A stretch of 64,000 bases of DNA, from the NCBI GenBank assembly GCA_026396115.1, contig JAPLXL010000002.1, positions 69,142 to 133,141 of the forward strand, in the 5' to 3' direction. Made by a program: the position numbers and the translations under genes. Numbering within the stretch: position 1 is the first letter of the stretch; each line of letters opens with the position of its first letter. Shown piece after piece: positions 442 through 22,275 of the stretch. Source of the DNA: Candidatus Nealsonbacteria bacterium. Its GTDB lineage: Bacteria; Patescibacteriota; Minisyncoccia; Minisyncoccales; RBG-13-42-11. The notes under the pieces are model-generated. The model did no database searches. It was not told where the DNA came from and saw only the letters and a list, made by a program, of their open reading frames with translations.

Positions 442-472
442 GAAGGGTGAAGAAGAGATTTATCTCTTCGAC
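442..472 (+). repeat. palindromic repeat family, copy A (ybeY leader)
   Basis: gaagagat-tt-atctcttc hairpin at 452-469. The 21-mer at 450-470 is identical to 21355-21375. Confidence 0.8.
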
Positions 473-480
473 TTATTTCG

Positions 481-882
481 ATGATCGAAATCAATAATTT
501 AACCACCAATCAAATCGACAGGGAGTTTTTAGAAAAAGTTGCTAAAAAAGTTTTAATGGGAGAAAATAAAAAGAAGTTAGAATTATCAATTGTCTTGGTC
601 GGTCAGGCCAGAATAAGAAAATTAAATAAGAAATACCGCCAAAATTATCGGTCAACCGACGTTCTTTCTTTCTCATATGATGGCTCGGGAGATATAGTTA
701 TTTGTTTGGGAGAGGTTAAAAAAAATGCCAAAAGATATAATTCAACTTTTAGAAAAGAATTAGCCAAAGTTTTAATTCACGGCATCTTGCATCTTTTGGG
801 CTATGACCATGAGAAGTCAGAGAAAGCTGCCAAGGAGATGGAAGAAAAACAAGAACATTATTTAAGAAAAATTTATGGCTAA
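481..882 (+). CDS. ybeY: rRNA maturation endoribonuclease YbeY
   Basis: 133 aa with the zinc-binding motif HGILHLLGYDH (HxxxHxxxxxH). Size is typical of YbeY. Confidence 0.9.
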   Translation: MIEINNLTTNQIDREFLEKVAKKVLMGENKKKLELSIVLVGQARIRKLNKKYRQNYRSTDVLSFSYDGSGDIVICLGEVKKNAKRYNSTFRKELAKVLIHGILHLLGYDHEKSEKAAKEMEEKQEHYLRKIYG

Positions 883-2095
883 AACTAATATACTTGCCGG
901 TTTAGATATAGGATCAAGTACTATTAAAATTTTGATTGCGGTAAAAAGAAATGGTGAGCCGAATTTTGAGGTGCTCTTTCGGGGAGAAGAACCATCTTTA
1001 GGAGTAAGAAGGGGAGTTGTAATTGATGTTGATAAGGTTTCTAGGATTATTCAGATTCTTTTTGATAGGCTAAGAGCTGAAACTGGCCAAAAAATCAATT
1101 CAGTTTTTGTCAATATCGGAGGCAGCCATATTTCTTGCGTTTTGTCTCGGGGAATGGTTGCCGTTTCCCGGGCAGACAGAAGCGTTTCAAAAGAAGATAT
1201 AGATAGGGTTTTACAGGAAGCTGCCAGGGCTCTTTCTTTGCCTTCAAATAATGAAATTTTAGAAACTTTTCCCAAAGAATTTATTATTGATGGCGTGGGA
1301 GGGATAAAAACCGCCGAGGGTTTACAAGGAGGGAGATTAGAAACAGAAATTTTAATTTTAAGCAGTTTTTTACCTTATAAAAATAATTTAATCCAAGCGG
1401 TTTTGGATGCAGGCCTCCAAATTTCGGACATTGTTCCTTCTTCGATAGCCAGTTCATCTGTTGTTCTTTCTCAGAGACAAAAAGAATTAGGCGTGGCAAT
1501 TTTAGACATAGGAGCGGGCACTTCAGATTTGGCTGTTTTTGAGGAAGGAGATCTGGTTCATTTAGCTGTTTTCCCCATTGGCTCGGCCAATATAACTTCA
1601 GACATTGCTGTTGGTTTGAAAACAGATGTTGATATCGCCGAAGCAATAAAGATAAAACTGGGCAGTTGTCTTTTTAAGGGAAAAGACAAAAAAGAAAAAA
1701 CTGAAGTTGAAGGAGAAGAGCCTTTGATTTTTTCTCAAAAAATATTGACAGGAATTATTGAGGCGCGGGTTTCAGAAATTTTTGGAGAAGTTCAAAAAGA
1801 ATTAAAAAAGATTTCAAAACAAAATCTACTGCCCTCGGGCCTTGTTTTAGCGGGAGGAGGGGCAAGGTTGCCAAAAATTGTTGAGTTAGCTAAAAAAGAA
1901 TTAAAGCTTCCTTGTCGGCTCGGAAAAATTGCTTGTTTCCCGGAATTAGAAGAAGAACTAAGTTATGCTACTGTTTGCGGATTAGTTTTTGATGGCAGTA
2001 AATCAGAAGGCAGAGAGATTTGGCGGGAAAGCAGTTTTTCTTCCGGTAGTTTTGCTAATAAAATAAAGAAAATATTTAGAAATTTTTTACCATGA
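875..2095 (+). CDS. ftsA: cell division protein FtsA
   Basis: Actin-fold ATPase motifs GLDIGSSTIKILIA and LDIGAGTSDLAVF. C-terminal amphipathic segment FANKIKKIFRNFL. Overlaps the ftsZ start (ATGA). Confidence 0.9.
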   Translation: MAKTNILAGLDIGSSTIKILIAVKRNGEPNFEVLFRGEEPSLGVRRGVVIDVDKVSRIIQILFDRLRAETGQKINSVFVNIGGSHISCVLSRGMVAVSRADRSVSKEDIDRVLQEAARALSLPSNNEILETFPKEFIIDGVGGIKTAEGLQGGRLETEILILSSFLPYKNNLIQAVLDAGLQISDIVPSSIASSSVVLSQRQKELGVAILDIGAGTSDLAVFEEGDLVHLAVFPIGSANITSDIAVGLKTDVDIAEAIKIKLGSCLFKGKDKKEKTEVEGEEPLIFSQKILTGIIEARVSEIFGEVQKELKKISKQNLLPSGLVLAGGGARLPKIVELAKKELKLPCRLGKIACFPELEEELSYATVCGLVFDGSKSEGREIWRESSFSSGSFANKIKKIFRNFLP

Positions 2096-3021
2096 AAAAT
2101 ATGACAAAAATTAAAGTGATTGGAGTGGGTGGTTCGGGCTCAAATGCTATATCCAGGATGGCAAAATGCAAAATAAAAGGCGTTGAATTAATTGCCATTA
2201 ATACCGATGCCCAAGATTTATCCAGAACAAGGGCGGATGTAAAATTAGGGATTGGTAGAAAAACCACTCAAGGGTTGGGCACGGGAATGAATCCGGAAAT
2301 CGGTAGAAAATCAGCCCTAGAAAATCGTCAGGAGATTTTAGAGATTTTAAAAGGTTCTGATATGGTTTTTATTACTTGCGGACTTGGTGGGGGAACGGGA
2401 TCGGGAGCAGCTCCAGTGATTGCTCAAGTTACCAAAGAATTGGAAATTTTAACCTTGGCCGTAGTTACAAAACCTTTTTCCTTTGAGGGACAGGTTCGGT
2501 TAAAAATCGCTGAAGATGGCATTAGAAAATTAAAAGAAAATGTTGATACTTTAATTTCTATTTCCAACGATAAACTTCTTGCTACTTTAGATCCCAATAT
2601 CTCTCTTGTAAATGCTTTCTGGGCCTGCGATGATATTTTGCGTCAGGCAGTTCAGGGAATTTCCGATTTAATTTTGTTGCCTGGCATTATTAATGTTAAT
2701 TTTGCCGACGTTAAGACGATTATGAAAAATGCCGGTTCCGCACTTTTTGGAGTAGGCAAGGCTTGGGGTGAAGGAAGAGCAGAAAAAGCGGCCCTTTCTG
2801 CCATAAACTCTCCTTTATTGGATGTATCGGTAAAAGGAGCCAGAGGAGTTTTGTTTAATGTTTCTGGCGGAAAAGATATTAGTCTTTCAGAAATTGATGA
2901 AGTTGCCAGGTTTATTACCAAAGAGATTAACCCTGAAGCAAAAATAATTTTCGGCGCCGTTCAAAATGAAAATTTGAAACAAGGGGAGATAAAAGTAACG
3001 GTCATTGCTACCGGATTTTAA
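2092..3021 (+). CDS. ftsZ: cell division GTPase FtsZ (core domain only, no C-terminal linker or tail)
   Basis: IKVIGVGGSGSNAISRM and the tubulin signature GLGGGTGSGAAPVIA. Ends at KVTVIATGF immediately followed by a stop. Confidence 0.95.
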   Translation: MKNMTKIKVIGVGGSGSNAISRMAKCKIKGVELIAINTDAQDLSRTRADVKLGIGRKTTQGLGTGMNPEIGRKSALENRQEILEILKGSDMVFITCGLGGGTGSGAAPVIAQVTKELEILTLAVVTKPFSFEGQVRLKIAEDGIRKLKENVDTLISISNDKLLATLDPNISLVNAFWACDDILRQAVQGISDLILLPGIINVNFADVKTIMKNAGSALFGVGKAWGEGRAEKAALSAINSPLLDVSVKGARGVLFNVSGGKDISLSEIDEVARFITKEINPEAKIIFGAVQNENLKQGEIKVTVIATGF

Positions 3022-3029
3022 ATTGCTAA

Positions 3030-4502
3030 ATGTCTCAATCTCAAATTTTTTTATTCATCTGTCTCTCTTTTATCGGAGGCATTTTTTTAAATTCATTCTT
3101 GCCCGTTGGAGCCTTGGTAAAGACGGGTTTGGTTATCCTTGGAATATTGCTTATCTCAATTTTCTGGAGATATAAAAAAATAACTGTCCTTGGTTTTTGT
3201 ATTTTATTTTTGGTTTTGGGAATTTGGCGGCATCAGCTGACAGAGTTAAGAATTATGAATAATGAATTAAGAAAATACAATGACCAAGAAAAAATTATTA
3301 CTTTAGTAGGAGTGATCGCCAAAGAGCCAGATATTAGAGAAAAAAGTGTCAAACTGACAGTTCAACCAGAAAATATAAATGGAAAGGTTTTGGTAATTGC
3401 TAGTCGATACCCTGAATATCAATATGGAGATAAATTAAAAATTATTGGAAAATTAGAAACTCCTCTTGAATTTGAAGATTTCAATTACAAAGATTATTTG
3501 GCCAAAGACGGAATTTATTCGATCATGTATTATTCTAAAATTGAATTAGTCGGTCAAGGTTTTGGAAAACCGATTTATAAAATCCTTTTTTATTTCAAAA
3601 ATAAATTTGAAGAAACGGCCAGAAGCTTTATTTCTCCTCCCCAAGAAGGAATTTTGGAAGCTTTGGCTTTTGGCGATGAGGGAAATATCTCTAATGATTG
3701 GAAAGAAAAATTCAATATTACCGGCACCCGGCATATTGCTGCTGTTTCCGGGATGAACATTACAATTATTTCAGCCTTGCTTTTGAATATTCTTTTGCTA
3801 TTAGGATTCTGGCGGAATCAAGCTTTTTATCTATCCGTTATTTTGCTGGTTATTTATATTTTGATGATCGGGGCGCCGGCTTCAGCCGTTAGGGCGGGGA
3901 TTATGGGAATTATTTTTCTAACAGCCCAGCATTTTGGCAGATTGTCAGCTGCTTCCAGGGCCGTTGTTTTTTCCGCAGCTATTATACTGGCTTTGAACCC
4001 CTTGCTTTTGAAATTAGATGTCGGATTTCAATTGTCATTTTTGGCAATGATGGGAATAATTTATCTTCAGCCCGCCTTTCTAAATTTTTTTAAAAAGATG
4101 CCCGATTTTAAATTTTTTTCCTTAGGAACTACTCTTTCAACTACCCTTTCCGCCCAGATTTTTACCTTGCCAATTTTAATTTATAATTTTGGCTATATTC
4201 CTTTAATTTCTCCAATTACCAATATTTTAATTGTTCCATTTTTAGCCCCAATTACTATTTTGATTTTTGTTTTTGGCTTTTCGGCAATGCTTTTTTGGCC
4301 GTTGGGTTTTCTTTTTTCTTTGCCGGTTTGGTTTTTCTTAAGCTATATTACTTACCTGATTGACGGGTTCTCAAAACTTTCTTTTGTTTCTTTAAGCATA
4401 AAAAATATTCATTGGATTTGGCTGTTAATTTCTTATTTAATTTTAGGATTATTTATTTGGCGGTTTAAAGAAAAACAAAAACTAAAGTTTCTGAAATATT
4501 AA
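3030..4502 (+). CDS. comEC: ComEC/Rec2 DNA internalisation channel (N-terminal OB-like domain plus competence domain, no beta-lactamase domain)
   Basis: Polytopic membrane protein with ITGTRHIAAVSGMNI, the competence-domain signature. At 490 aa it is too short to carry the C-terminal metallo-beta-lactamase domain. Confidence 0.85.
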   Translation: MSQSQIFLFICLSFIGGIFLNSFLPVGALVKTGLVILGILLISIFWRYKKITVLGFCILFLVLGIWRHQLTELRIMNNELRKYNDQEKIITLVGVIAKEPDIREKSVKLTVQPENINGKVLVIASRYPEYQYGDKLKIIGKLETPLEFEDFNYKDYLAKDGIYSIMYYSKIELVGQGFGKPIYKILFYFKNKFEETARSFISPPQEGILEALAFGDEGNISNDWKEKFNITGTRHIAAVSGMNITIISALLLNILLLLGFWRNQAFYLSVILLVIYILMIGAPASAVRAGIMGIIFLTAQHFGRLSAASRAVVFSAAIILALNPLLLKLDVGFQLSFLAMMGIIYLQPAFLNFFKKMPDFKFFSLGTTLSTTLSAQIFTLPILIYNFGYIPLISPITNILIVPFLAPITILIFVFGFSAMLFWPLGFLFSLPVWFFLSYITYLIDGFSKLSFVSLSIKNIHWIWLLISYLILGLFIWRFKEKQKLKFLKY

Positions 4503-6782: not shown

Positions 6783-6807
6783 TCGGTCCACCGGGATGGC
6801 TTCCCTG

Positions 6808-6858
6808 GGCGAAGAAGATAAATCTTCTTCTTTACCCTTCGCTGCGGCTCGGGTGTGC
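6808..6858 (+). repeat. palindromic repeat family, copy B
   Basis: ggcgaagaagataaatcttcttctttacccttcgctgcggctcgggtgtgc. Confidence 0.85.
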
Positions 6859-6865
6859 AATAAAG

Positions 6866-7899: not shown

Positions 7900-8778
7900 T
7901 TGAAAATTATGCTTAGCATTATTATTCCCGCCCTGAATGAGGAAAAATATCTTCCCTTATTGCTTAATTTAATCAAGCAGCAGAACTTTGCTGGAGGCGA
8001 AGAGGATAAATCCTCTTCTTCACCTTCGCTTTCCCGAGCGATAGCGAAGGGGGAAGAAGAAAGTTTACTTTCTTCGCCCTCGCTAGGCGAAAGCTCGGCT
8101 TATGAAGTGATTGTGGCTGATGCCGACTCTATTGATAAAACAGTTGAGATTGCCAAAAGTTTTGGCTGTCAAGTTATTAGAGGCGGCCTGCCGGCCAGAG
8201 GAAGAAATGAGGGAGCAAAAATTGCCAAAGGAGAGATTTTTTTGTTTATGGACGCTGATAATGTTTTTTTGCCAGAGAACTTTCTAGAAAACCTTTTGGC
8301 AGAATTTGAAAAAAAGAAATTGGGAGTAGCTTCTTTTCCGATCTATCCCAGGGGTAAAAAAATAGATAAAATTCTTTACGGAATTTACAATAATTTTGTT
8401 AATTTGACTAAAATTCCCTGTGCCACAAATTCGGTTTTGGTTAAAAAAGAAATTTTTGAAAAAGTTGGCGGATTTGACGAAGAAATAAAAATAGGTGAAG
8501 ATCATTGTTTTGTCAAGCAAGCGGCAAAATTTGGCAAATTCGGATTTATAAAAACCGAATCCGTTTTGACATCTCCCAGAAGGTTTGAGCATGAAGGCAG
8601 ATTGAGAACTTATTTGAAATATATTTTAGCCGGGATTTATATGCTTTTTTTCGGCCCGATAAAAAAACCTATTTTTAAGTATAATTTTGGTCATTGGTCA
8701 GCGAGCGAGGCAGAGCCGAGCGAAGGTGGAAAAGAGCGTAAAGTGCTCTTTGACTATTTGAAAAAGAAAAAAAATTGA
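7900..8778 (+). CDS. family 2 glycosyltransferase carrying an in-frame 37-codon repeat-derived insert
   Basis: LSIIIPALNEEKYL ... YEVIVADADSIDKT ... FMDADN is a GT2 signature. It is interrupted at 7990-8100 by repeat-element sequence. Confidence 0.8.
   Translation: MKIMLSIIIPALNEEKYLPLLLNLIKQQNFAGGEEDKSSSSPSLSRAIAKGEEESLLSSPSLGESSAYEVIVADADSIDKTVEIAKSFGCQVIRGGLPARGRNEGAKIAKGEIFLFMDADNVFLPENFLENLLAEFEKKKLGVASFPIYPRGKKIDKILYGIYNNFVNLTKIPCATNSVLVKKEIFEKVGGFDEEIKIGEDHCFVKQAAKFGKFGFIKTESVLTSPRRFEHEGRLRTYLKYILAGIYMLFFGPIKKPIFKYNFGHWSASEAEPSEGGKERKVLFDYLKKKKN
7996..8100 (+). repeat. palindromic repeat family, two tandem copies inside the GT2 CDS
   Basis: ggcgaagaggataaatcctcttcttcaccttcgct..., then ...gaagaaagtttactttcttcgccctcgctaggcgaaagctcggct. 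The 25-mer at 7998-8022 is identical to 21298-21322. Confidence 0.85.
8701..8751 (-). repeat. palindromic repeat family, reverse-orientation copy forming the GT2 C-terminal tail
   Basis: The reverse complement reads aaagagcactttacgctcttttccaccttcgctcggctctgcctcgctcgc. Confidence 0.7.
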
Positions 8779-8800: not shown

Positions 8801-10120
8801 ATGTCTATTTACGAACTGCCAAAATTTAAGATGCCGAAAATAAAACTGCCAAAATTTAACTTTCCTAAGTTTTTAAGGAACAGAATTTTTTGGCTGGCAG
8901 TTTTAATTATTTTTTTGTCTTCTTCTTTTGGTTTTTTAGCCGGAATTGTTTCTGGCAGTATTTTCTATTTGCAAATAAAAGATTATCTTTCCGGCTTAAA
9001 TATTAAACTTCCGGAAATTCAAAAATTGATTGAGAAAGAATATGTTTCTCAAACTACTCAAGAAGAAACAACAATAAATGTGGTAAAGAGCGCTTCTCCG
9101 GCAGTAGTCAGTATCGTTATCACCAAAGACGTTCCAATTATTGAAGAATATTACTACAACCCTTTTCCAGAATTTGGTCAGCAATTTCAAATTCCTCAAT
9201 ACCGGCAAAAAGGAACCCAAAAGCAGGAAGTTGGTGGAGGAACGGGCTTTATTGTTTCTGATGACGGAATGATTTTAACCAATAAACATGTGGTTTTAGA
9301 TACTGAAGCTGATTACACTGTTTTAACCAATGATGGGAAGAGTTATCCTGCCAAAGTTTTAGCTCGCGACCCTGTTCAGGATTTGGCAGTAATTAAGATT
9401 GACCAAGAAAAAATTGTGAATAGCCCGGGGAATTTCACTTTAACAAAGTTTCCAGTAGTAAGACTGGGTGATTCGGATGCTCTCCAAATCGGCCAGACCG
9501 TAATTGCCATCGGCAATGCCTTGGGAGAATTTCGAAATACGGTTTCAGTGGGTGTAGTTTCAGGTCTAGGGAGAAGCATTACTGCTTCAGGTGGCGGTTT
9601 ATCTGAAACTATTGAAGATGTTATCCAAACCGATACCGCTATTAATCAAGGGAATTCCGGTGGGCCGCTTCTTAACCTAAAAGGAGAGGTTGTTGGGATA
9701 GATACAGCTATGGTTCAGGGAGCCCAAAATATTGGTTTTGCTATTCCTATTAATAAAGCCAAAAAAGACATTGAGCAGATTAAAACCCTGGGGAAAATTG
9801 TTTACCCATATTTGGGGGTTAGATACGTTTTAATCACAGAAAAGATTCAGGAAGACAATAACTTGCTGGTTTCTTACGGTGCTTGGATTATTAAAGGATA
9901 CCAGGGAGAGTCAGCCGTTGCTTCTGGTTCAGCTGCTGAAAAAGCCGGCCTTAAAGAAAAAGACATAATTTTAGAGTTTAATGAAGAAAGGATTACTGTT
10001 GAAAATTCTTTAGCTAAAATTATTATGAAATATAACCCGGGAGACAGAGTTGTTTTGAAAATTTTGAGAAACGGCAAGGAAGAAATCATCCAGGCAACCC
10101 TGGACGAAATAAGCGAATAA
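8801..10120 (+). CDS. htrA: HtrA/DegP-family serine protease with PDZ domain
   Basis: Intact catalytic triad contexts TNKHVV, DLAVIKI and GNSGGPL. N-terminal TM anchor and C-terminal PDZ-like region. Confidence 0.9.
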   Translation: MSIYELPKFKMPKIKLPKFNFPKFLRNRIFWLAVLIIFLSSSFGFLAGIVSGSIFYLQIKDYLSGLNIKLPEIQKLIEKEYVSQTTQEETTINVVKSASPAVVSIVITKDVPIIEEYYYNPFPEFGQQFQIPQYRQKGTQKQEVGGGTGFIVSDDGMILTNKHVVLDTEADYTVLTNDGKSYPAKVLARDPVQDLAVIKIDQEKIVNSPGNFTLTKFPVVRLGDSDALQIGQTVIAIGNALGEFRNTVSVGVVSGLGRSITASGGGLSETIEDVIQTDTAINQGNSGGPLLNLKGEVVGIDTAMVQGAQNIGFAIPINKAKKDIEQIKTLGKIVYPYLGVRYVLITEKIQEDNNLLVSYGAWIIKGYQGESAVASGSAAEKAGLKEKDIILEFNEERITVENSLAKIIMKYNPGDRVVLKILRNGKEEIIQATLDEISE

Positions 10121-10157: not shown

Positions 10158-10340
10158 ATGGGCTTACATGGGACTGAGTCTAACCTGATAGAAAGGATGG
10201 ACGCCTATCAAAGAGAAGCAAGAGCAATAAAAAGAAAACTGGAAAACGGCGTTCCGGAAGAGAAAAGAGATAAGATTGAATCTCGCTTGAAAGACCTCAA
10301 AGGAAGATTAATTCCCGATCTTGTCCGAAAAATTTTTTAA
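10158..10340 (+). CDS. small helical hypothetical protein
   Basis: 60-aa ORF with an unusually strong SD (aaggagg, 8 nt before the ATG), followed by a rho-independent terminator. Confidence 0.4.
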   Translation: MGLHGTESNLIERMDAYQREARAIKRKLENGVPEEKRDKIESRLKDLKGRLIPDLVRKIF

Positions 10341-10375
10341 GGGTTTTTATGCTTCTACTCGGAGCACAAAAGTCA

Positions 10376-10425
10376 GGGGGATACAAGATGCGTAAACAGC
10401 GGATTGTATCCCCTTTTTTTATTTT
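10376..10425 (+). terminator. rho-independent terminator
   Basis: gggggatacaa (10376-10386) pairs with ttgtatcccc (10404-10413), followed by a T run. Confidence 0.7.
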
Positions 10426-10451
10426 TGAGGTTTTATTTTTTTTAAATTGTA

Positions 10452-10460: not shown

Positions 10461-10470
10461 GAAAATGAAA

Positions 10471-10531
10471 GGCGAAGAGGACTTCGTCCTCTTCTTTACC
10501 TTCGCTTTTATAAATAAAAGCTTGGTGTATG
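10471..10531 (+). repeat. palindromic repeat family, two-hairpin variant abutting the clpB ATG
   Basis: ggcgaagaggac-ttcg-gtcctcttc tttaccttcgc; second hairpin gcttttat..ataaaagc; then ttggtgtATG. Confidence 0.85.
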
Positions 10532-13941: not shown

Positions 13942-13985
13942 AAAAAGCTCACCAGATTAACTCTGTGTGAGCTTTTTGTTTTTTA
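13942..13985. terminator. bidirectional rho-independent terminator
   Basis: aaaaagctcac (13942-13952) pairs with gtgagcttttt (13967-13977), flanked by A and T runs. Lies between convergent genes. Confidence 0.7.
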
Positions 13986-13989
13986 TTAT

Positions 13990-14289
13990 CTATTTATTGG
14001 TATATTTTCCAATATTTTTTACCCGTCCCATATCTACTTCTTTTTCTTTTATCTCTCCTTCATTTATTTTCGGGTTTTTCATGATCCAAATCAAGAATTT
14101 CGAGCCCAAACAAGCAATAGATATTAGGCCTATTGTCTGTGCTATCAAGACACTATTAATTTGAAGGTAATAAATCTTGGCAATAAGATGTGCCTCAATA
14201 ATGACCTTACGGCAAAACCATATTGTTGATATTACCGTAACAAGACCTGTCACTACTTGCGCCACAAGTATTCTAAATCTTTCCATCAT
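13990..14289 (-). CDS. small membrane protein, unknown function
   Basis: Minus-strand ORF with 2-3 hydrophobic helices. I prefer the ATG at 14289, preceded by GAGGTG, over the GTG at 14301 used in the ORF track. Confidence 0.4.
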   Translation of the reverse strand: MMERFRILVAQVVTGLVTVISTIWFCRKVIIEAHLIAKIYYLQINSVLIAQTIGLISIACLGSKFLIWIMKNPKINEGEIKEKEVDMGRVKNIGKYTNK

Positions 14290-14611
14290 TTCTATTTTCA
14301 CCTCTCTTTCTTTCCATATTTATATTTTTAAAAAAAGAAAAATTTCTTTTTAACTAACTATACCTTAACATATTTAAAATAAAAAGTCAAGCCAGAAAGC
14401 ACTTTTTGAAATAAGTTATCCACAGGGGCGGGTTGTTTTTTTGTTTTTGGATTTGTTATGATAGGAAAATATGGCAAATTTTAAAAAATTTTTGAATAAA
14501 AAATTTCTTTTTGTTTTTGTATTTGTTTTAATCCTCGCTGTCGGAGGATTATTTTTTTGGTGGCAGAGATAATTATTAAAATCTCGAATAAGATATAGTT
14601 TAAGTGAAAGA

Positions 14612-15440: not shown

Positions 15441-15454
15441 CAAAAAGTCAAATT

Positions 15455-15563: not shown

Positions 15564-18500
15564 TCATAGTTTCTGAGTATTTACCAATTTATAATAAGGA
15601 TTTTTAGAGCATTTTGCCTTGATTTTTTCTGCCTTATTTAACCCTAAACCTTCTAACCCAATGTTGAAATATAGCGCAAAAACTAAATCATCAATATAGT
15701 TTTTCAGCTCTTGTTGTTTATCATAATCAATAATTGGTAAGGTTTTTAATTCAGATAAACTAATTATTGATTTTTCTAATTTTAATCCCTTACTATTATA
15801 TTTCTCGTCAATTGTTTTCTTAACTAAATTTTTACCACCTTTTATATGAATTTTAATTTTTTCTTTATCTTTTTCTAAAATTAGATTATTGCTTTCTACT
15901 GAAACGTTATCAAATTTTTGGAGCATTACTTTTGAAAAATCAACAAAGTGGGATAGCGTTTCCTCCCCTAACTTTAACATTTTTTCCACGCTATTTATGA
16001 TTTCATTTTTTATTTTTTGATTACCATCTGTAATTTTAGGTATTCGCACGAATTCTTTGATAGCCCTCAGCGGTATAAAATAATCTTTTTCATTTTCTTG
16101 TCTGAGATTTTCTTCAAGAATCAATTTGGTAATAGGAGAATTAAGTAAGGAAAAATAAAATAATAATTCGTTTTTTGAGTTAGAACTAACAGTCAACGAT
16201 TGGTTATTGATTAGGAGAATATTTCTATCTGTGAATTGGAAACGATTAGCAAATCTCGTTCGCCAGATGATTTTAAATTTTTTATGGAAGGTAGCTATTC
16301 CTTGACTTCCAGAAGGAAATTCAAAAGAACCATTGATAGGATAATATTTCTCGCTTTTACTTATCGTATATGCATCCCAATCGTTAGTTTTATAGTCAAA
16401 AATTTCAAAACAGTCATCATTAGCTCGGTTTTTAATTGAATCTTCGTTTATTATAACCCCTCCATCAAAAGAAAAGTCATCGTTGGGAGTTAATTTAACT
16501 CTAAAAGATGAGATATCAATCGTATTTTTCTTATATTCTTCGTGGAAATTTAAAAATTTCTTCTCTTGTTTAATAAAATTCCAGTTTGCGACATTCTGTA
16601 ATAATTCTTCTTGCGGGATTTCTTTCTCGGAAATTTTCTCTCCCTTAAGAATATTCTGTAAAGTTTCTTCTATGTTGTCATCAGGATTTTTATAATTTAT
16701 TACCTTAACCTTATTTGTTGCCAAAGGTATTTTTCTGCTAAGAACGAAAATCAAACTTGAAGTAGGTACTGGTTTATCTTGTTTCAACCCCCTACCTATA
16801 AACATTTTCCCACTGAAAATTATGATTTTTTCAAGGGTTGTAAATTTAGCCAAATGATAACGAAGGACATCAAGGTCGCCAGCGTTTAATAATGTTTGAG
16901 GAATAATATAGCATAGTTTTCCGTTGTCTTTCAATAATGCAATTCCTAAAGCAATAAAAAAGGCATAGAGGTTGGGCTTTGGAGAGTATGGTTTAATCCT
17001 ATTAGGCACGGTATTTAAATTTACGCCATAAATATCACTCATCTGAACTTTTTTATCCTGTATAAGCTTTACTATTAAAACGCCCTGTTTAGAAGATTCG
17101 TTATATCCAATATACGGTGGATTGCCGATTACATAATCAAATCTTTTTCTTGGCGGACGCATACTTTTTTTCGTATTTTCTAAATCACCTTTTTCTCTCA
17201 TATAACTATCAAATTCAAATTCTAATTTCTTAATATTAAAAAGTGGTCGTTGCCCTCCGCCAATGCCCATAAGGTCGTTTTCAGTATTGTTTATCTCTGA
17301 AAAAATAAACTCTGATATTGAATCTTTTGTCCAGAAAACTTTAATTTTTTTATCAATTGGATTGTTGTATTTTTCGTTAATAATCAACGGCAACATTCTC
17401 ATCACAATGTTCATCTCAGCCAGATATAGTGGAAATTCCGCTATATCTAAACCAAAAACATTTTCATTAACCAGTTCTTCTACCTCTTTTGAAGAATTTT
17501 CTGAGCCGTTCGGCACGGCGTTGATAATTTGATTAACAGCACTATATAAAAAAGTTCCACTACCGCAAGATGGGTCAATAATAGAAATATAATTTTCTTC
17601 AGGGTTATTATCTAACCTCTTTTTAATATTTTCTGGGTTATAACCAATCTGTTTAAGCATAAAGTTGACCACATCTGGGTCTGTGAAATATTGTCCCTTT
17701 TGTTCTTCTTTGTAGAGTTCCTTTAAGTAGTTTTCGTAGATATAACCAAATATTTCATTTCGGACATTGGCGAAGTTATATTTTTTAATAAATACAAAAA
17801 TGTCTAACCACGGGGAGACATCGTGCAGTTCGTTTTTAGGTTTACGCAAAAGCTCTATGAGTTTATTTGTAATAAATTCTTGTTCTTTAGCGAATGGACG
17901 ATAAATATTTTTAGATATTTCATTAGAAATACCATCAATAATACCTAAAATTTTGCCGTATTGCTTTACCTTTAAGCACTCGTAAATACCATTTTGAATA
18001 TCTGTAAACTCTTTTTTAAAAGAACTAAAATCGTTATCTACTAATGTTTTATAGAGTATAAATTGGATAATATAAGCATAAGTAATCTCAATAGCAATTT
18101 TTCCTTTTTGTTTTTTATCGGTAGTCTCTAAATATCCTTCAATCTCTAGCTTATTTTTAAAATCTCTTATTAAGGTTGTTATGTCCCTAAAAAAGTCTTG
18201 TCTTTTTTTATCTATCGAAATATCCTCTGGAATAATCTTTAATTGTCCTTTTTCCTCAAAAAATGATAAATAATAAAATTCTGGCTTGATATACTCCTCC
18301 CAATATTCCCTAAATAATTCAGGATTTTCAAAAATTTGCTTCAAATTAAATTCTTTTAGTAAATAAGCATTATTATAAAATTGCCAAGTATAACCATCTG
18401 TCAAAATCCCATATTTTTTATCTAAATCAAGTTGATATTGAAGTAATTGGCTAAGGCCGTTTTCAATGTTTCCGTATTGCTCCACCTCAAGAGGAATATT

Positions 18501-18740
18501 TATTTCGGGATTTATATAAATAATAATATCAGCCAAACGTCTAGCTTTTGTTTTAGTTTCTTCTGTGAATTCGTTATTTCTTCTTTCTAATGGAGTAGAG
18601 CTCAGCCCTTCTTTTAAATTAAAAATATCCTCAGATTTAAGAAAATCTTTAACAAATTTCTGAACGCCAGAGCCAACTTCTCGGGTTTTATAATCCTCTT
18701 TTTCTTTATTCCATTTGGTTTTTAGTTCCCTTATATTCAT
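15564..18740 (-). CDS. type IIG/IIL single-polypeptide restriction-modification enzyme (N-terminal nuclease-like region, gamma-class N6-adenine methyltransferase, C-terminal target-recognition region)
   Basis: 1058 aa. SAM motif I (IIDPSCGSGTFLY) lies upstream of catalytic motif IV (VIGNPPYIGY), the gamma-class order seen in Eco57I/MmeI-type enzymes. The N-terminal segment ADIIIYINPEINIPLEVEQ is PD-(D/E)xK-like. Confidence 0.8.
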   Translation of the reverse strand: MNIRELKTKWNKEKEDYKTREVGSGVQKFVKDFLKSEDIFNLKEGLSSTPLERRNNEFTEETKTKARRLADIIIYINPEINIPLEVEQYGNIENGLSQLLQYQLDLDKKYGILTDGYTWQFYNNAYLLKEFNLKQIFENPELFREYWEEYIKPEFYYLSFFEEKGQLKIIPEDISIDKKRQDFFRDITTLIRDFKNKLEIEGYLETTDKKQKGKIAIEITYAYIIQFILYKTLVDNDFSSFKKEFTDIQNGIYECLKVKQYGKILGIIDGISNEISKNIYRPFAKEQEFITNKLIELLRKPKNELHDVSPWLDIFVFIKKYNFANVRNEIFGYIYENYLKELYKEEQKGQYFTDPDVVNFMLKQIGYNPENIKKRLDNNPEENYISIIDPSCGSGTFLYSAVNQIINAVPNGSENSSKEVEELVNENVFGLDIAEFPLYLAEMNIVMRMLPLIINEKYNNPIDKKIKVFWTKDSISEFIFSEINNTENDLMGIGGGQRPLFNIKKLEFEFDSYMREKGDLENTKKSMRPPRKRFDYVIGNPPYIGYNESSKQGVLIVKLIQDKKVQMSDIYGVNLNTVPNRIKPYSPKPNLYAFFIALGIALLKDNGKLCYIIPQTLLNAGDLDVLRYHLAKFTTLEKIIIFSGKMFIGRGLKQDKPVPTSSLIFVLSRKIPLATNKVKVINYKNPDDNIEETLQNILKGEKISEKEIPQEELLQNVANWNFIKQEKKFLNFHEEYKKNTIDISSFRVKLTPNDDFSFDGGVIINEDSIKNRANDDCFEIFDYKTNDWDAYTISKSEKYYPINGSFEFPSGSQGIATFHKKFKIIWRTRFANRFQFTDRNILLINNQSLTVSSNSKNELLFYFSLLNSPITKLILEENLRQENEKDYFIPLRAIKEFVRIPKITDGNQKIKNEIINSVEKMLKLGEETLSHFVDFSKVMLQKFDNVSVESNNLILEKDKEKIKIHIKGGKNLVKKTIDEKYNSKGLKLEKSIISLSELKTLPIIDYDKQQELKNYIDDLVFALYFNIGLEGLGLNKAEKIKAKCSKNPYYKLVNTQKL

Positions 18741-18744
18741 AAAT

Positions 18745-18921: not shown

Positions 18922-18929
18922 ACACTTTC

Positions 18930-18958: not shown

Positions 18959-18988
18959 GTGGATAACTTTATCATTGTAAAAACAAAA

Positions 18989-19018
18989 AGCCCATCGCTG
19001 GGCTATTTTTTATTTTTT
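18989..19018. terminator. orphan rho-independent terminator (right copy of the 15-bp direct repeat)
   Basis: agccca (18989-18994) pairs with tgggct (18999-19004), followed by T runs. No convergent gene ends here. Confidence 0.55.
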
Positions 19019-19126
19019 GCTTAGGAGGCGTTCTTTATTTGGACACTTGACAAGTATTCTGAAAGGATTATGATGGACAATGAAAGGTCGAAGTAAGACA
19101 TAGATTGACATTAATCAATAAAATAT

Positions 19127-19516: not shown

Positions 19517-19666
19517 ATACAAAACGCTGGAAGCAAGTAAAGTACTCCAGCGTCTTGTAGATTACAAATCGTGGAGACCAGCGTCCCTAATAGGATTAAA
19601 AGTCGCGCTGGTTTTCCACAGCCTCTTCAGCTATTTTCATTATAGCTTGAAAAGGTTAACAAGTAA

Positions 19667-20140
19667 ATGTTAATTTCAATGTTACAAACAACGAAAGCAA
19701 AGCCAAATCCTTCCGGAAAAGATCGTTCCAGATTTTTTACACCACAACAACAACTAGCAGGAGAGTGGATTGATATTCAGAATACTGGTTCATTACCAAT
19801 ATCTTTAAACAACCTAGAGGTTTATCATTTAGCTTATAAAATGACTGGAACGGAATGGGAGAAAGTTATTGTTTTATCAGGCATGTTACCAGCGGGGAAA
19901 ATAGTAAGAATTCATTCGGGAAGAGAGATCCCATTACTACAGTTATTAGAAATAGATAGAATCGGTGCGGAGTATCATATCTTTACGGGAAAGAACTATG
20001 TTTGGAATAATGACCAAGTAGATAAACCCAGCATTTTTAACTCACAACTAAAAAAATGGGAAGATCAGACCTGGTATGACAAATATCCACCCGAAGGGAT
20101 TGTGCTGAAAAGGGACAATGGCAAACTAGTACCATTATAG
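19667..20140 (+). CDS. lamin-tail-domain (LTD)-like protein
   Basis: NPSGKDRSRFFTPQQQLAGEWIDIQNTGSLPISLNNLEVYHL resembles the LTD pattern NPxGxD...EWIELxNxGxxxVxLxGW. No signal peptide is seen. Confidence 0.5.
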   Translation: MLISMLQTTKAKPNPSGKDRSRFFTPQQQLAGEWIDIQNTGSLPISLNNLEVYHLAYKMTGTEWEKVIVLSGMLPAGKIVRIHSGREIPLLQLLEIDRIGAEYHIFTGKNYVWNNDQVDKPSIFNSQLKKWEDQTWYDKYPPEGIVLKRDNGKLVPL

Positions 20141-20213
20141 CCCTAGGAGAAGTGCGAGGGTCGTTGTTTTCTAGAGACAACTTCCCTCGTCCTTTCATCA
20201 AATTGTAAAGTAA

Positions 20214-20906
20214 TCTTTAAAAAATAATTCTGGCAAGAATAATAAGTTAAATGGCATTTATCTTTTAGGTTCAGCTACCGAAAATTGGACGCTTTATCGA
20301 AATAATGATTTTCCTTATGTCATTTTACAACTTGAAATAGTTTCCAGTTCCACTTTGATCATTAATCCAGGTGTGGTAGTAAAATTTGAACCTTATAAAC
20401 CCTGGTCGGGTAATGACGATAATTTGATCGTAAAAGGAAAGATTGAAGCCATAGGTTCTCCAACCGAAAAAATTGTTTTTACTTCGATTGATGATGATGA
20501 GTACGGTGGCGATACTAAAAATGATGGAATCACAACCTCAATTAGCTATTGGAACAGGATTCATTTCACTCCCGAAGCTGCTACTTCTACTTTTCAAAAT
20601 GTAATCATTAGTTATGGAGGACTAACTGGACTTGGTTGGTATCCTTATCTTGGTGTGGTATATGTAGAAAAAAATAGTGTAATTTTTGAAGATGTTTACT
20701 TCAAAAATAACGGACCCAGTGCGTATACTCTTTATTTAGAGAACTCAACTTCTACGGTTAGAAATTCCATTTTTGAAAATAGTTGGATAGCAATTAATAT
20801 TGTCGGTCAAGATCAGAATGTCTTTGAGAATAATGCTTTCCAAAATTGCAATTGCTATGTCATGAAGGATAATCAGTGTATTTCGCCTATTTCGTCCTTG
20901 CCTTAA
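20214..20906 (+). pseudogene. 5'-truncated remnant of a large right-handed beta-helix surface protein
   Basis: The frame is open from 20214 with no ATG until a TTG at 20355. The upstream in-frame peptide LNGIYLLGSATENWTLYRNNDFPYVILQLEIVSSSTLIINPGVVVKF continues the domain. Downstream NSIFENSWIAINIVGQDQNVFENNAF repeats are beta-helix-like. There is no signal peptide or N-terminus. Confidence 0.45.
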
Positions 20907-20962
20907 TGCCCAACAAATAGGTTTTTATGTATGATTTTCAAGTCGTTAGGGCTTGATTTTTT

Positions 20963-20991
20963 TTGACCCAGTTTTTAATTTCTGATATATT
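20963..20991 (+). promoter_or_regulatory. sigma70-type promoter
   Basis: TTGACC (20963-20968), a 17-nt spacer, then TATATT (20986-20991). The ORF-track TTG start at 20963 is the -35 box itself. Confidence 0.5.
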
Positions 20992-21004
20992 AAAAGAACG
21001 TTCT

Positions 21005-21637
21005 ATGAACAGAGAGTTTTTAATTCAACTGACAAATAATCTTTATCGCTTAACCTTGCTTTTTCCGAAAAAAGAGCCCTTAAGGTATAAAATGCGAGAA
21101 AAGGCTGATGATATTTTGGCCAAACCCAATGAAAAAGATTTGGAGGTTTTGGACAGTTTTTTTGAAGTGGCTTTGGTTCAAAACTGGGTAAGTCCTTCTG
21201 ACATATTGGCAATTAAGAAAGAATATGATAATCTAGGGGAGATATTAAAAAAATACAAGCCGGAAAAAGAAAAAAAGAAAGATAATCTTGCTGTTGTCGA
21301 AGAGGATAAATCCTCTTCTTCAGCCATCGAGCGAGGCGAAGCCGAGCGAAGATCAAGAAGAGATTTATCTCTTCGCCCCGCTGCGGCTCTGGTTGTTGAA
21401 GCTTATCCCAAAGAAACGCCAATTCCGCTGGGTCATAATTTGAACAGGCAAGAAAAGATACTGGAGTTTTTAAAAGAAAAGGGCAGGGCCCAGGTTTGGC
21501 AGATAAAGCAAGTTCTGCCCGAAGTTACCAAAAGAACCTTAAGACGAGATTTTGAGCATATGTTAGAACAGGGCTTAATTGAGAGAATGGGCGAGAAAAA
21601 CGACACTTTTTACCAAATTAGAAATATTCAATCCTAA
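21005..21637 (+). CDS. winged-helix (DeoR-type HTH) DNA-binding protein with repeat-derived linker
   Basis: C-terminal NRQEKILEFLKEKGRAQVWQIKQVLPEVTKRTLRRDFEHMLEQGLIER is a DeoR-like wHTH. ATG at 21005 is preferred as the start. The linker at 21298-21396 is repeat-element DNA. Confidence 0.55.
   Translation: MNREFLIQLTNNLYRLTLLFPKKEPLRYKMREKADDILAKPNEKDLEVLDSFFEVALVQNWVSPSDILAIKKEYDNLGEILKKYKPEKEKKKDNLAVVEEDKSSSSAIERGEAERRSRRDLSLRPAAALVVEAYPKETPIPLGHNLNRQEKILEFLKEKGRAQVWQIKQVLPEVTKRTLRRDFEHMLEQGLIERMGEKNDTFYQIRNIQS
21298..21396 (+). repeat. palindromic repeat family, two tandem copies inside the wHTH CDS
   Basis: cgaagaggataaatcctcttcttca..., then ...aagaagagatttatctcttcgccccgctgcggctctggttgt. 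Confidence 0.85.
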
Positions 21638-21696
21638 ATGAGGTATACATATATAGGGTAGGACACGCTGTCCTACCTTGTCTGGCTTAATTTATC

Positions 21697-22212
21697 ATGG
21701 CAAATAAACGAAAAGAATTCAGTAAAATCTACGACCGGTGTATTAATAAAATATATCGTTTTATATTCTTAAAGGTGAATTCTGAGGAAATTGCCCAGGA
21801 TTTGTGTTCCGAGACCTTTTTAAAGGGCTGGGAATCATACAAGAACAATCCCAATATTGAAAATCCTTCAGCTTTTTTGTATCGGATTGCCCGTAATCTA
21901 ACAACCGATTACTATCGGGAAAAGGGTAGGACAAATTTTGTTTCGCCAGAAATAGTGCCGATTGTTGATCCAAAGCCGGGTATAGAAGAAAAAGTAGTTT
22001 TTAACTCAGATTTGGACCAAGTTAAGCTAGTTTTAGCTGATTTAAAGGAAGATTACCAAAACGTGATTATCTGGCATTATTTGGACGATCTACCTATTCC
22101 AAAAGTAGCGAAAATGCTTGATAAATCGGAAGGAGCCACCCGGGTGACTCTCCATCGTGCTCTAAAATCCATTAAAAATGAGATTAACAGACGGGAGGTA
22201 AAGGAAGGATAA
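21697..22212 (+). CDS. ECF-type RNA polymerase sigma factor
   Basis: 171 aa. Region 2 (YRIARNLTTDYYR) and region 4 HTH (IPKVAKMLDKSEGATRVTLHRALKSIK). Confidence 0.85.
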   Translation: MANKRKEFSKIYDRCINKIYRFIFLKVNSEEIAQDLCSETFLKGWESYKNNPNIENPSAFLYRIARNLTTDYYREKGRTNFVSPEIVPIVDPKPGIEEKVVFNSDLDQVKLVLADLKEDYQNVIIWHYLDDLPIPKVAKMLDKSEGATRVTLHRALKSIKNEINRREVKEG

Positions 22213-22214
22213 CT

Positions 22215-22275
22215 GGCGAAGAGAACTTCGTTCTCTTTTTTATCTTCGCTTTCACTACGTGAAAGCTTGGTGTGT
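22215..22275 (+). repeat. palindromic repeat family, two-hairpin variant between the sigma and DUF5667 genes
   Basis: ggcgaagagaac-ttcg-ttctctt ttttatcttcgc; second hairpin gctttcac-tac-gtgaaagc; then ttggtgtgt. Confidence 0.85.

What the first reader, a model, noticed from the sequence alone, without database searches (positions are those of the whole stretch)
442..22275. Dispersed nested-palindrome repeat family (at least 9 copies) occupying both gene leaders and coding sequence
Copies lie at 442-472, 6808-6858, 7996-8040, 8041-8100, 8701-8751 (reverse orientation), 10471-10531, 21298-21350, 21351-21396 and 22215-22275. The common plan is GGCGAAG, then a hairpin GAAGAGnn-loop-nnCTCTTC, then (T)TTACCTTCGC, then a GC-rich tail. 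The tail is either CTGCGGCTCGGGTGTG-like or a second hairpin plus GCTTGGTGTGT. The exact 25-mer cgaagaggataaatcctcttcttca is shared by 7998-8022 and 21298-21322. The exact 21-mer aagaagagatttatctcttcg is shared by 450-470 and 21355-21375. Hairpin arms differ between copies but always with compensating changes (GAGGA/TCCTC, GAAGA/TCTTC, GAGAT/ATCTC, GAGGAC/GTCCTC, GAGAAC/GTTCTC, GAAAGT/ACTTTC). So the palindrome rather than the sequence is preserved. The copies are markedly more GC-rich than their surroundings. I did not spot any copy in the 32-64 kb glycan cluster. The behaviour resembles REP/MITE-like elements, and especially Rickettsia palindromic elements, which are known to sit in frame inside ORFs.
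Basis: seen in the sequence. Interest (0 to 1): 0.7.

Follow-up and report, generated by a model that had tools for sequence, protein, structure and literature searches.

The report
Mobile hairpin repeats in CPR genome
A family of roughly 48-65-base hairpin-forming DNA repeats has spread through this tiny Patescibacteria (Nealsonbacteria-like) genome and its relatives, landing between genes and, in frame, inside conserved protein genes, much as REP and Rickettsia palindromic elements do in other bacteria.

Summary
A covariance model built from the copies finds exactly nine strong matches in the window (49-69 bits), all in the first 22.3 kb and none in the rest.

The unit has a head (T/A)AG-G[C/T]CGAAG, a 7-9 bp hairpin, a spacer TTCACC(C)TTCGC, and a tail. 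The tail is either TGCGGCTCGGG or a second hairpin followed by CTCGGT.

A syntenic relative (90-96% identical) and outgroups show three lineage-specific gains: two in the window and one in the relative. Every indel inside a coding sequence is a multiple of 3.

Sixty model-confirmed copies were found in 22 stretches of DNA (the window plus 21 fetched contigs). Every confirmed copy lay in a contig labelled as Patescibacteria or as an unclassified bacterium. Both hairpins covary strongly. All 10 adjacent pairs are inverted doublets, as in REPINs. Copies sit in frame in a GT2 glycosyltransferase, ClpC, GatB and a DeoR-type regulator.

Best reading: a non-autonomous, selfish palindromic element, built like a REP/REPIN and behaving like an RPE. 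The mobilising enzyme was not found. The Y1 transposase of relatives is absent from the window and is flanked by a different hairpin. I found no published description. I rate it a new member of a known kind, of moderate to high interest.

The parts
416..476 (-). Single-hairpin copy between the yqeY-like and ybeY genes. Hairpin GAAGAGAT/ATCTCTTC lies at 452-469.
   Evidence: R1 scores 50.8 bits. The copy is conserved in the syntenic relative L001 at 754-814 with 97% identity.
6804..6862 (+). Single-hairpin copy with tail TGCGGCTCGGG, ending 4 nt before the ATG of the glycoside-hydrolase-like gene. It is a gain specific to the window lineage.
   Evidence: R1 scores 59.9 bits. The insert of about 85 nt is absent from L001, L201, L202 and L203 at the orthologous gene junction.
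7992..8100 (+). Two-hairpin copy inside the GT2 glycosyltransferase ORF (7909-8778). It is split by the nested reverse copy. Together they add 34 residues (102 nt) to the protein relative to the empty allele in L002.
   Evidence: R1 scores 62.2 bits. The protein alignment A1 and DNA alignments A4 and A7 show empty, single and double states in orthologues. The composite folds into a long hairpin of -28 kcal/mol, z -3.8.
8031..8078 (-). A 48-nt reverse copy nested in hairpin 2 of the forward copy. It is specific to the window lineage and encodes SRAIAKGEEESLLSSP.
   Evidence: R1 scores 62 bits. It is an exact 48-nt insertion relative to L001, with a 2-nt ambiguity at the junction. It is 81% complementary to 6807-6853. 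The same 16-residue unit is repeated three times in tandem in the unrelated protein P0241.
8702..8758 (-). Reverse copy that forms the C-terminal extension of the GT2 protein.
   Evidence: R1 scores 49.4 bits. It is shared with L001 (10746-10802) and L002 (917-973). The same site is occupied in L203, L204 and L205. Orthologues without it end about 17 residues earlier.
10467..10529 (+). Two-hairpin copy that fills the leader of clpC. Its 3' end, GCTTGGTGT, abuts the ATG at 10529.
   Evidence: R1 scores 68.8 bits. DNA fold is -12.9 kcal/mol, z -4.7. It is shared with L001 and L002 but absent upstream of clpC in L202, L204 and L205.
21292..21381 (.). Tail-to-tail inverted doublet, 21292-21345(+) and 21328-21381(-). 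It lies in frame in the linker of a four-helix/HTH_DeoR protein (ORF 20963-21637).
   Evidence: R1 scores 49.4 and 50.5 bits. Pfam finds HTH_DeoR. The orthologue in L205 carries one copy in the same linker. The hairpin centres are 57 nt apart, as in the GT2 doublet.
22211..22274 (+). Two-hairpin copy that starts right after the stop codon of the sigma-70 family gene and ends 34 nt before the DUF5667 gene.
   Evidence: R1 scores 62.4 bits. DNA fold is -12.7 kcal/mol, z -4.6.

Best explanation
This is a family of short, non-autonomous, selfish palindromic DNA elements that has recently been active in a Nealsonbacteria-like (Patescibacteria/CPR) lineage.

The basic unit is about 48 nt. It has a head (T/A)AG-G[C/T]CGAAG, a 7-9 bp hairpin (GAAGAGnn...nnCTCTTC), a spacer TTCACC(C)TTCGC and a tail TGCGGCTCGGG. 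A longer form of about 62 nt carries a second hairpin before CTCGGT.

Shown here:
- Copies are gained at new sites in close relatives.
- They land in intergenic leaders and inside genes in either orientation.
- They often land next to or inside another copy, giving inverted doublets.
- Copies inside genes survive only as multiples of three bases without stop codons, so they are translated as short Ser/Glu-rich, probably disordered, loop or tail segments.
- Both hairpins are kept by compensatory substitutions.

Inferred:
- The hairpin with its asymmetric flanks is the recognition structure for a trans-acting enzyme. The most likely candidate is an HUH/Y1 (IS200- or RAYT-type) transposase acting on single-stranded DNA, as for REP/REPIN elements (about 0.3 for this step).
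- Gene conversion among copies probably helps keep them alike.
- Some leader copies may secondarily act as 5' or intercistronic mRNA hairpins.
For: The family is real and tightly defined. There are nine window copies at 49-69 bits and a clear gap to background.

Gains are polarised by outgroups. The 6804 copy occurs only in the window and is absent from L001, L201, L202 and L203. The 48-nt nested copy occurs only in the window. A 57-nt copy at the C-terminus of ClpC occurs only in L001 and is absent from the window, L202, L204 and L205. The surrounding DNA is 90-96% identical.

Indels inside coding sequences are 48, 51 and 57 nt.

Distribution is narrow. Copies were confirmed only in contigs labelled as Patescibacteria or as unclassified bacteria. 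The other contigs that matched the pattern all failed the model. None was found in viral contigs. Only 5 copies occur in 596 kb of more distant CPR loci, against 9 in 64 kb here and 11 in 5.7 kb of L047.

Covariation is strong. 92% of cells pair, against 78% in shuffles (0 of 500 shuffles reach the observed value) and 46-58% in the slid controls. Twelve of 17 pairs change on both sides, and all 8 pairs of hairpin 2 do so.

All 10 adjacent pairs are inverted and none is direct.

Host proteins are unrelated to one another: GT2, ClpC, GatB, an HTH_DeoR protein, a radical-SAM activase and others.

The architecture matches published REP descriptions: a head, a palindrome kept by complementary mutations, a 3' flank, and doublets or clusters (PMC2817692, PMC3337134). 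In-frame insertion matches RPE behaviour (PMC10969869).
Against: No transposase lies in the 64-kb window. The 25-64 kb part was checked only by tblastn with one Y1 query.

The Y1_Tnp gene of relatives (L204, L205, L126) is flanked by quite different palindromes, not by this element.

The canonical REP GT[AG]G head is present in only a minority of copies.

No consistent target-site duplication or clean excision footprint was seen. The empty GT2 allele of L002 differs from the filled allele by a 7-nt versus 58-nt replacement, not a seamless indel.

The GT2 insert is more conserved (87-96%) than the coding flanks (68-76%) across distant orthologues. A purely neutral parasite would not show this unless gene conversion or re-insertion is frequent.

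Orientation is unbiased (5 forward, 4 reverse) although GC skew is uniform across the window. That is not the pattern expected for lagging-strand-targeted IS200/IS605 elements, though nine copies are too few to decide.
Confidence: 0.72

Rival explanations
1. The element is a host-functional structured RNA module. It would act as a 5'-leader or intercistronic hairpin that stabilises mRNA, attenuates transcription or tunes translation initiation. Its conservation would then reflect selection on RNA function rather than on mobility.
For: Two-hairpin copies fold very stably, with z about -4.7. Three copies end exactly at the ATG of a long ORF, in the form CT[CT]GGTNTATG: window clpC, the L075 signal peptidase and the L006 PLP enzyme. 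Several others end 4-34 nt upstream of a start codon. A ClpB/ClpC-type gene follows a copy in two distant genomes, the window and L032. An extended -10-like TGCTATAAA sits about 10 nt upstream of the clpC copy (read). Hairpin 1 passes a lenient terminator scan at 10474, 22218 and 21374. The GT2 insert is better conserved than its flanks, and both hairpins covary.
Against: Copies occur in both orientations relative to transcription: 5 forward and 4 reverse in the window, with sense and antisense mixed in other loci. Many lie inside ORFs, where a terminator or leader function makes no sense. The clpC leader copy is missing from the orthologous leaders of L202, L204 and L205. The downstream genes are functionally unrelated. 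No Rfam family is matched. Intergenic regions here are so short that closeness to a start codon is expected anyway.
Confidence: 0.13
2. The element is a classical MITE. That is, a deletion derivative of an insertion sequence with terminal inverted repeats, moved by a DDE transposase and leaving a short target-site duplication such as TA.
For: Many copies outside the window are bounded by TA on both sides, in the form TA|G[GT]C[GA]AAG ... CTCGG(G)|TA. The nested 48-nt insertion has a 2-nt junction ambiguity. The size and non-coding nature fit small MITEs (PMC10969869).
Against: The termini are at best 5 of 9 complementary, so there is no convincing terminal inverted repeat (read). The one clean recent insertion duplicates GA/TC, not TA. 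The other empty/filled pairs show no duplication. No parent insertion sequence or DDE transposase was seen in any fetched locus.
Confidence: 0.08
3. The copies are not mobile. They are ancient, vertically inherited insertions or locally generated palindromes, and the differences between relatives arise only by deletion and homologous recombination.
For: The two GT2 sites and the HTH-linker site are occupied across distant orthologues. On the NJ tree the GT2 N-site pattern needs either at least 4 losses or several gains. The L002 empty allele looks like an allelic replacement rather than an excision.
Against: Three insertions are each unique to one lineage and absent from three or four outgroups. 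Identical 21-25-mers are shared by copies in unrelated genes. The same 16-residue unit is found in unrelated proteins from other assemblies. Copy density differs more than tenfold between related lineages.
Confidence: 0.07

Closest known systems
REP / REPIN elements with RAYT transposases (Gammaproteobacteria; Nunvar 2010 PMC2817692; Bertels & Rainey 2011 PMC3337134, PMC3116915)
   Same: Both are short imperfect palindromes with a conserved 5' head and a distinct 3' flank. In both, palindromes are kept by complementary mutations. Both have many dispersed copies and cluster as inverted doublets: here 10 of 10 adjacent pairs, with composite units of about 84 nt against 89 bp for the P. fluorescens REPIN. 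In both, copy number is lineage-specific. There is no coding capacity for a transposase.
   Different: More than half of the window copies lie inside ORFs, whereas REPs are extragenic by definition. The head is (T/A)AG-G rather than GT[AG]G in most copies. A second, modular hairpin is often present. The host is Patescibacteria. No RAYT flanked by the element was found, and the Y1 transposase of relatives carries other palindromes.
Rickettsia palindromic elements (RPE; Ogata et al. 2000, summarised in PMC10969869)
   Same: Both are palindromic repeats in a small, reduced genome. Both insert in frame into unrelated, often essential, protein genes and are translated as extra peptide segments. Both also occur in intergenic DNA. 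No associated transposase is known for either.
   Different: RPEs are about 100-150 bp, in ten families, and are specific to Rickettsia. This unit is 48-65 nt with a different sequence, forms REPIN-like doublets and occurs in free-living or episymbiotic CPR bacteria. Sequence similarity to RPEs was not tested.
Classical bacterial MITEs (Correia/NEMIS, ERIC, Nezha, Chunjie; PMC10969869)
   Same: Both are small, non-autonomous and dispersed. Both are sometimes intragenic with in-frame fusions, and both can form stable RNA or DNA hairpins.
   Different: No convincing terminal inverted repeats, no consistent target-site duplication and no parent insertion sequence were seen here.

Membership tests
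REP/REPIN-RAYT | A short imperfect palindrome with a conserved 5' head and a different 3' flank, dispersed in many copies | tested here: met
   Alignments A6 and A8 and the 5'-flank counts show G at -1 in 52 of 58 copies and A at -2 in 42 of 58. Sixty copies were confirmed.
REP/REPIN-RAYT | A GT[AG]G head directly 5' of the palindrome | tested here: inconclusive
   A literal GTAG precedes only about 6 of 58 copies. TAG, AAG or GAG precede most of the rest.
REP/REPIN-RAYT | Predominantly extragenic location | tested here: not met
   Five of the 9 window copies lie inside ORFs. About 15 of 52 non-redundant copies lie well inside long stop-free frames.
REP/REPIN-RAYT | Inverted doublets (REPINs) or clusters (BIMEs) | tested here: met
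   All 10 adjacent pairs are inverted: 6 tail-to-tail and 4 head-to-head. The window doublets have identical 57-nt spacing. The doublet folds as one long hairpin.
REP/REPIN-RAYT | Palindrome kept by compensatory substitutions | tested here: met
   92% of cells pair, 12 of 17 pairs change on both sides, and the structure beats both the shuffled and the slid controls.
REP/REPIN-RAYT | A single-copy RAYT gene flanked by the same REPs in inverted orientation | tested here: not met
   tblastn finds no Y1 gene in the window. The Y1_Tnp genes of L204, L205 and L126 are flanked by other palindromes. Their best NCBIfam match, REP_Tyr_transpos, scores 42.5 bits against a cut-off of 80. Whole genomes could not be read, so a second, cognate gene is not excluded.
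Rickettsia palindromic elements | In-frame insertion in unrelated ORFs, translated as extra peptide | tested here: met
   Copies lie in GT2, ClpC, the HTH_DeoR protein and GatB. Indels are 48, 51 and 57 nt.
Rickettsia palindromic elements | Element length of about 100-150 bp and membership of RPE sequence families | tested here: not met
   The units are 48-65 nt. RPE sizes are taken from PMC10969869. Sequence comparison with RPE consensus sequences was not done.
Classical MITE | Terminal inverted repeats and a target-site duplication of fixed length | tested here: not met
   The termini are at most 5 of 9 complementary. The only clean recent insertion shows a 2-nt GA/TC ambiguity, and the others show none.
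Known cis-regulatory or other RNA families (Rfam 15) | A match to a curated covariance model | tested here: not met
   No match reaches a gathering score in the whole window. Only chance-level matches appear at E up to 1 in 300-22500.

The most novel reading that the evidence does not exclude
The hairpins may be more than parasites. Inside coding sequence they are kept by selection on nucleic-acid structure over long evolutionary distances. The orthologous GT2 insert is 87-96% identical while its coding flanks are 68-76% identical. In L204 both stems are rebuilt by compensatory changes. This would mean the CPR host, or a domesticated enzyme that co-evolves with the element, uses these modules. 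Possible uses include mRNA end protection, translational pausing, or a recombination or replication signal. It would be a REPIN-RAYT-like long-term symbiosis that operates within protein-coding genes of ultra-small genomes.
Probability: 0.2. Interest if true: 0.8.

Novelty: new member of a known kind. Interest (0 to 1): 0.6.

Why it matters
CPR/Patescibacteria genomes are among the smallest and most streamlined known, and they are usually described as poor in repeats and mobile DNA. An actively spreading palindromic element in such genomes is therefore notable. It reaches about one copy per 0.5-7 kb in some lineages and sits in frame in genes such as clpC, gatB and a cell-envelope glycosyltransferase.

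It matters for four reasons.
- It shows that REP- and RPE-type elements are not confined to Proteobacteria.
- It explains lineage-specific length differences and low-complexity Ser/Glu-rich inserts in CPR proteins. Such inserts can mislead gene calling (for example artificial N-terminal extensions, as in L047), alignment and structure prediction.
- It offers strain-level markers for CPR populations.
- It gives a tractable case for asking how hairpin repeats move when no obvious transposase is present.

Tried and rejected
- **Genome-collection scan.** It gives only a sample of the taxonomic range, not copy numbers per genome.
- **Metagenome scan with the GT2 alignment.** It returned mostly distant orthologues without inserts. 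That was useful as a density control but not for defining insertion sites.
- **Y1 (RAYT-like) transposase lead.** I followed the gene found in L204. It belongs to a very large CPR family and sits at a syntenic position next to the Trypsin_2 gene in L204 and in the complete genome CP179888.1. It is absent from the window and is flanked by unrelated palindromes.
- **Peptide search.** A 40-residue insert peptide searched against 1.84 billion representatives gave only 4 hits, because the query is short and of low complexity. Three of the four carried the element's peptide.
- **AlphaFold model of the GT2 protein.** The model from a 23-row alignment is poor (mean pLDDT 42). It only weakly supports the view that the insert is an unstructured loop between helix 15-24 and strand 65-69.
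- **Extending beyond the window.** Look-ups of window proteins to reach its own contig found nothing on record.
- **Gene flanked by inverted copies.** I looked for one in L041 and found only an ORF that looks like a mistranslated tRNA gene (not confirmed) and a protease.
- **Other readings considered and rejected:** CRISPR repeats (no arrays), introns or inteins (indels are multiples of 3 and are translated), uptake sequences or operators (the arms vary with compensation), and assembly artefact (the same sites occur in independent JGI, NCBI and ENA assemblies).

Full report
**1. Is it there?**

Reading the stated coordinates shows a G+C-rich nested palindrome at each site. I aligned 12 copies from the window and from a syntenic relative (A6). 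From that alignment I built covariance model R1.

With filters off, R1 finds nine matches in the window at 49-69 bits (E 1e-14 to 1e-21). They are 416-476(-), 6804-6862(+), 7992-8049(+), 8020-8082(-), 8702-8758(-), 10467-10529(+), 21292-21345(+), 21328-21381(-) and 22211-22274(+). The next best matches score 23 bits or less and are sub-matches of the same hairpins. Nothing is found between 23 and 64 kb.

A strict sequence pattern gives 4 matches against 0 in 100 shuffles. Six of the seven copy blocks are 42-53% G+C against 32-39% in their flanks. The copy at 416-476 is not enriched. Nine copies all falling in the first 22.3 of 64 kb has a probability of about 8e-5 if placement were uniform.

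Three copies (442, 8041, 21351) are actually in the reverse orientation.

**2. Anatomy**

The unit reads as follows:
- a head, (T/A)AG-G[C/T]CGAAG;
- hairpin 1, 7-9 bp, mostly GAAGAGnn/nnCTCTTC, with a GATGAnn subfamily in other genomes;
- a spacer, TTCACC(C)TTCGC;
- a tail, which is either TGCGGCTCGGG (short form, about 48 nt) or a second hairpin (GCTTnnnn...nnnnAAGC) followed by CT[CT]GGT (long form, about 62 nt).

GCGAAG in the head can alternatively pair with CTTCGC in the spacer.

On 21 long-form copies from many genomes, 92% of cells form standard pairs. Column shuffles give 78% (0 of 500 reach the observed value) and the slid controls give 46-58%. Twelve of 17 pairs change on both sides, and all eight pairs of hairpin 2 covary.

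Long-form copies fold far better than shuffles (z about -4.7). Short forms fold only modestly better (z -0.8 to -2.3). The composite at 7994-8100 folds into one long hairpin of -28 kcal/mol, z -3.8.

**3. Context in the window**

Four copies are intergenic:
- between the yqeY-like and ybeY genes;
- 4 nt before the start of a glycoside-hydrolase-like gene;
- the whole clpC leader, abutting the ATG;
- directly after the stop codon of a sigma-70 family gene.

Five copies are inside ORFs:
- three in a GT2 glycosyltransferase, as an N-terminal nested pair and a C-terminal copy;
- a doublet in the linker of a four-helix/HTH_DeoR protein.

These assignments rest. Orientation relative to transcription is 5 forward and 4 reverse. 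Copies inside genes are read in different frames: EEDKSSSSPSL, AKGEEESLLSSP and RRSRRDLSLRP.

**4. Relatives**

GT2 homologues show striking length polymorphism. Most are 230-240 residues. The window protein has 289, its closest relative P0001 has 273, and P0002 has 256.

The contig carrying P0001 (L001, 291 kb) is syntenic with window 1-14.5 kb at 90-96% identity. Comparing the two, and using L201-L205 as outgroups, gives three polarised gains:
- The 6804 copy is in the window only.
- The 48-nt nested reverse copy is in the window only. It is an exact insertion with a 2-nt junction ambiguity.
- A 57-nt reverse copy adds 19 residues near the C-terminus of ClpC in L001 only.

L002 has an empty GT2 N-site. 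Its flanks are identical to L001 for 80 nt on each side, and 7 nt stand in place of 58 nt. All indels inside coding sequences (48, 51, 57 nt) are multiples of three.

**5. Wider distribution**

R1 confirmed copies only in these contigs:
- Candidatus Paceibacter normanii;
- a complete Candidatus Nealsonbacteria genome, CP179888.1;
- contigs labelled "Patescibacteria group";
- several MAGs labelled Saccharibacteria (labels not verified);
- two unclassified MAGs.

None of the 10 viral pattern hits is a real copy.

Eighty more distant CPR loci, 596 kb in all, hold only 5 copies. The window has 9 in 64 kb, L001 has 6 in 20.8 kb, and L047 has 11 in 5.7 kb. In L047, copies sit inside gatB and in the leaders or N-termini of folD and deoC. 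The family is thus a lineage-specific expansion within Patescibacteria.

I collected 60 confirmed copies. All 10 adjacent pairs are inverted (6 tail-to-tail, 4 head-to-head) and none is direct. Both window doublets have the same 57-nt spacing between hairpin centres.

The 16-residue unit encoded by the nested copy recurs in other proteins. It appears three times in tandem in an unrelated secreted protein, and together with the forward peptide in two other proteins.

**6. Conservation at orthologous sites**

The GT2 N-site insert is present in most clades of the orthologue tree. It is absent from five lineages, which requires several losses or several gains.

Among L001, L201, L202 and L203 the insert is 87-96% identical while the flanking coding DNA is 68-76% identical. 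In L204 it is 63-71% identical, but both stems are rebuilt by compensatory changes. The other GT2 copy in L204 belongs to the same GATGAAG subtype.

This points to within-genome homogenisation, or to co-evolution with a trans-acting factor, rather than neutral decay.

**7. How does it move?**

The architecture matches published REP/REPIN descriptions: a head, a palindrome kept by complementary mutations, a distinct 3' flank, inverted doublets and no coding capacity (PMC2817692, PMC3337134, PMC5581495).

I therefore looked for a Y1 (RAYT-type) transposase. One is encoded in L204, L126 and the complete Nealsonbacteria genome (L205). It is next to the Trypsin_2 gene in L204 and L205, at a position syntenic with window 13.95-14.4 kb. 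It belongs to a family of more than 5,000 CPR proteins. Its best NCBIfam match is the REP-associated tyrosine transposase model, but below the cut-off.

However:
- The window lacks the gene.
- The L205 copy is truncated at its N-terminus.
- In each case the gene is flanked by a different palindrome: ATTGATTT-CGT-AAATCAAT in L204 and L205, and CTACGCGGCCGGGTCGCGTAG in L126. Neither palindrome is dispersed in the DNA I hold.

No DDE transposase or parent insertion sequence was seen either. Terminal inverted repeats are unconvincing and no consistent target-site duplication exists. The mobilising activity therefore remains inferred.

**8. Rivals**

A sense-strand RNA function is suggested by several observations. 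Three copies end exactly at a start codon. A clp gene follows a copy in two distant genomes. A plausible extended -10 sits just upstream of the clpC copy.

It cannot explain the family as a whole. Both orientations occur, many copies lie inside genes, and the orthologous clpC leaders of L202, L204 and L205 lack the copy. The downstream genes are also unrelated, and there is no Rfam match. Secondary co-option of individual leader copies remains possible.

A purely static, vertically inherited origin is contradicted by the three polarised gains and by identical k-mers shared between copies in unrelated genes.

**9. Verdict**

This is a genuine dispersed palindromic repeat family that has been mobile recently. 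It is built like a REP/REPIN and behaves like a Rickettsia palindromic element (PMC10969869), and it occurs in Patescibacteria.

It does not pass strict membership tests for the REP family: it is not extragenic, and no cognate RAYT was found. It does not pass them for the RPE family either, because the size is wrong and the sequence relationship was not tested.

Full-text searches found no description of such elements in CPR bacteria. I rate it a new member of a known kind, with moderate to high interest.

Noticed in passing
L204:8448-9143(-); L205:10001-10570(+); L126:7943-8587; syntenic gap in window 13950-14400: A Y1 (IS200/RAYT-like) transposase gene sits next to the Trypsin_2 gene in L204 and L205 (and also occurs in L126) but is missing at the same place in the window and in L001. 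The gene contains an internal copy of its own flanking palindrome (ATTGATTTCGTAAATCAAT, which encodes IDFVNQ). The L205 copy appears truncated exactly at that internal palindrome.
   Followed up: partly
window 15564-18740 (-): A 1058-residue ORF matches the Eco57I and MmeI methyltransferase domains. It is probably a type IIG restriction-modification enzyme. It lies in the non-syntenic stretch between the Trypsin_2 gene and the HTH_DeoR gene.
   Followed up: no
window 14416-14424; L204 about 9190-9200: A perfect DnaA-box consensus, TTATCCACA, followed by a G-rich stretch, is conserved between the window and L204. It lies just upstream of a small membrane-protein ORF (14471-14572). Only one box was seen.
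   Followed up: no
window 28245-29918 and 29967-31640 (-): Two adjacent 557-residue ORFs are paralogues. They share a 300-nt stretch at 91% identity and further near-identical segments (repeat families D1 and D5).
   Followed up: no
window 21657-21677: A perfect 9-bp hairpin, GGTAGGACA-CGC-TGTCCTACC, of unrelated sequence lies 20 nt upstream of the sigma-70 family gene.
   Followed up: no
window 22407-22440: GGCGAAGAACGAGAACAGTTCTCGTTGATAG inside the DUF5667 gene has the family's head and a hairpin but lacks the spacer and tail. It falls below the model threshold. It may be a decayed copy or a chance match.
   Followed up: no
window 10158-10430: A small ORF of 59-60 residues is conserved in L001 and L002. 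It is followed by a long hairpin and a run of T that looks like a terminator, just upstream of the clpC promoter-like site and the leader copy.
   Followed up: no
L047:1-5700: Eleven copies lie in 5.7 kb. Because the copies lack stop codons they create artificial N-terminal extensions of folD and deoC in mechanical ORF calls. Two lie inside gatB.
   Followed up: partly
P0076 (GT2 orthologue), C-terminus; P0241: Element-derived peptide units occur as tandem arrays. The unit VGAANEVGDEGQTPKEANLIDN is repeated at the C-terminus of P0076. The unit SRATAKGEEESLLSSP occurs three times in P0241. This suggests local amplification after insertion.
   Followed up: no
L204:9268-9302: A G+C-rich block, GGCCCGAGGCGAGCGAAGCGAGCCGAGGGC, lies beside the Y1 transposase gene. 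It resembles the GAGCGAGGCGAAGCCGAGCGAAG tail variant seen at window 8701-8725 and 21329-21350, and it is absent from the window at the orthologous place.
   Followed up: no
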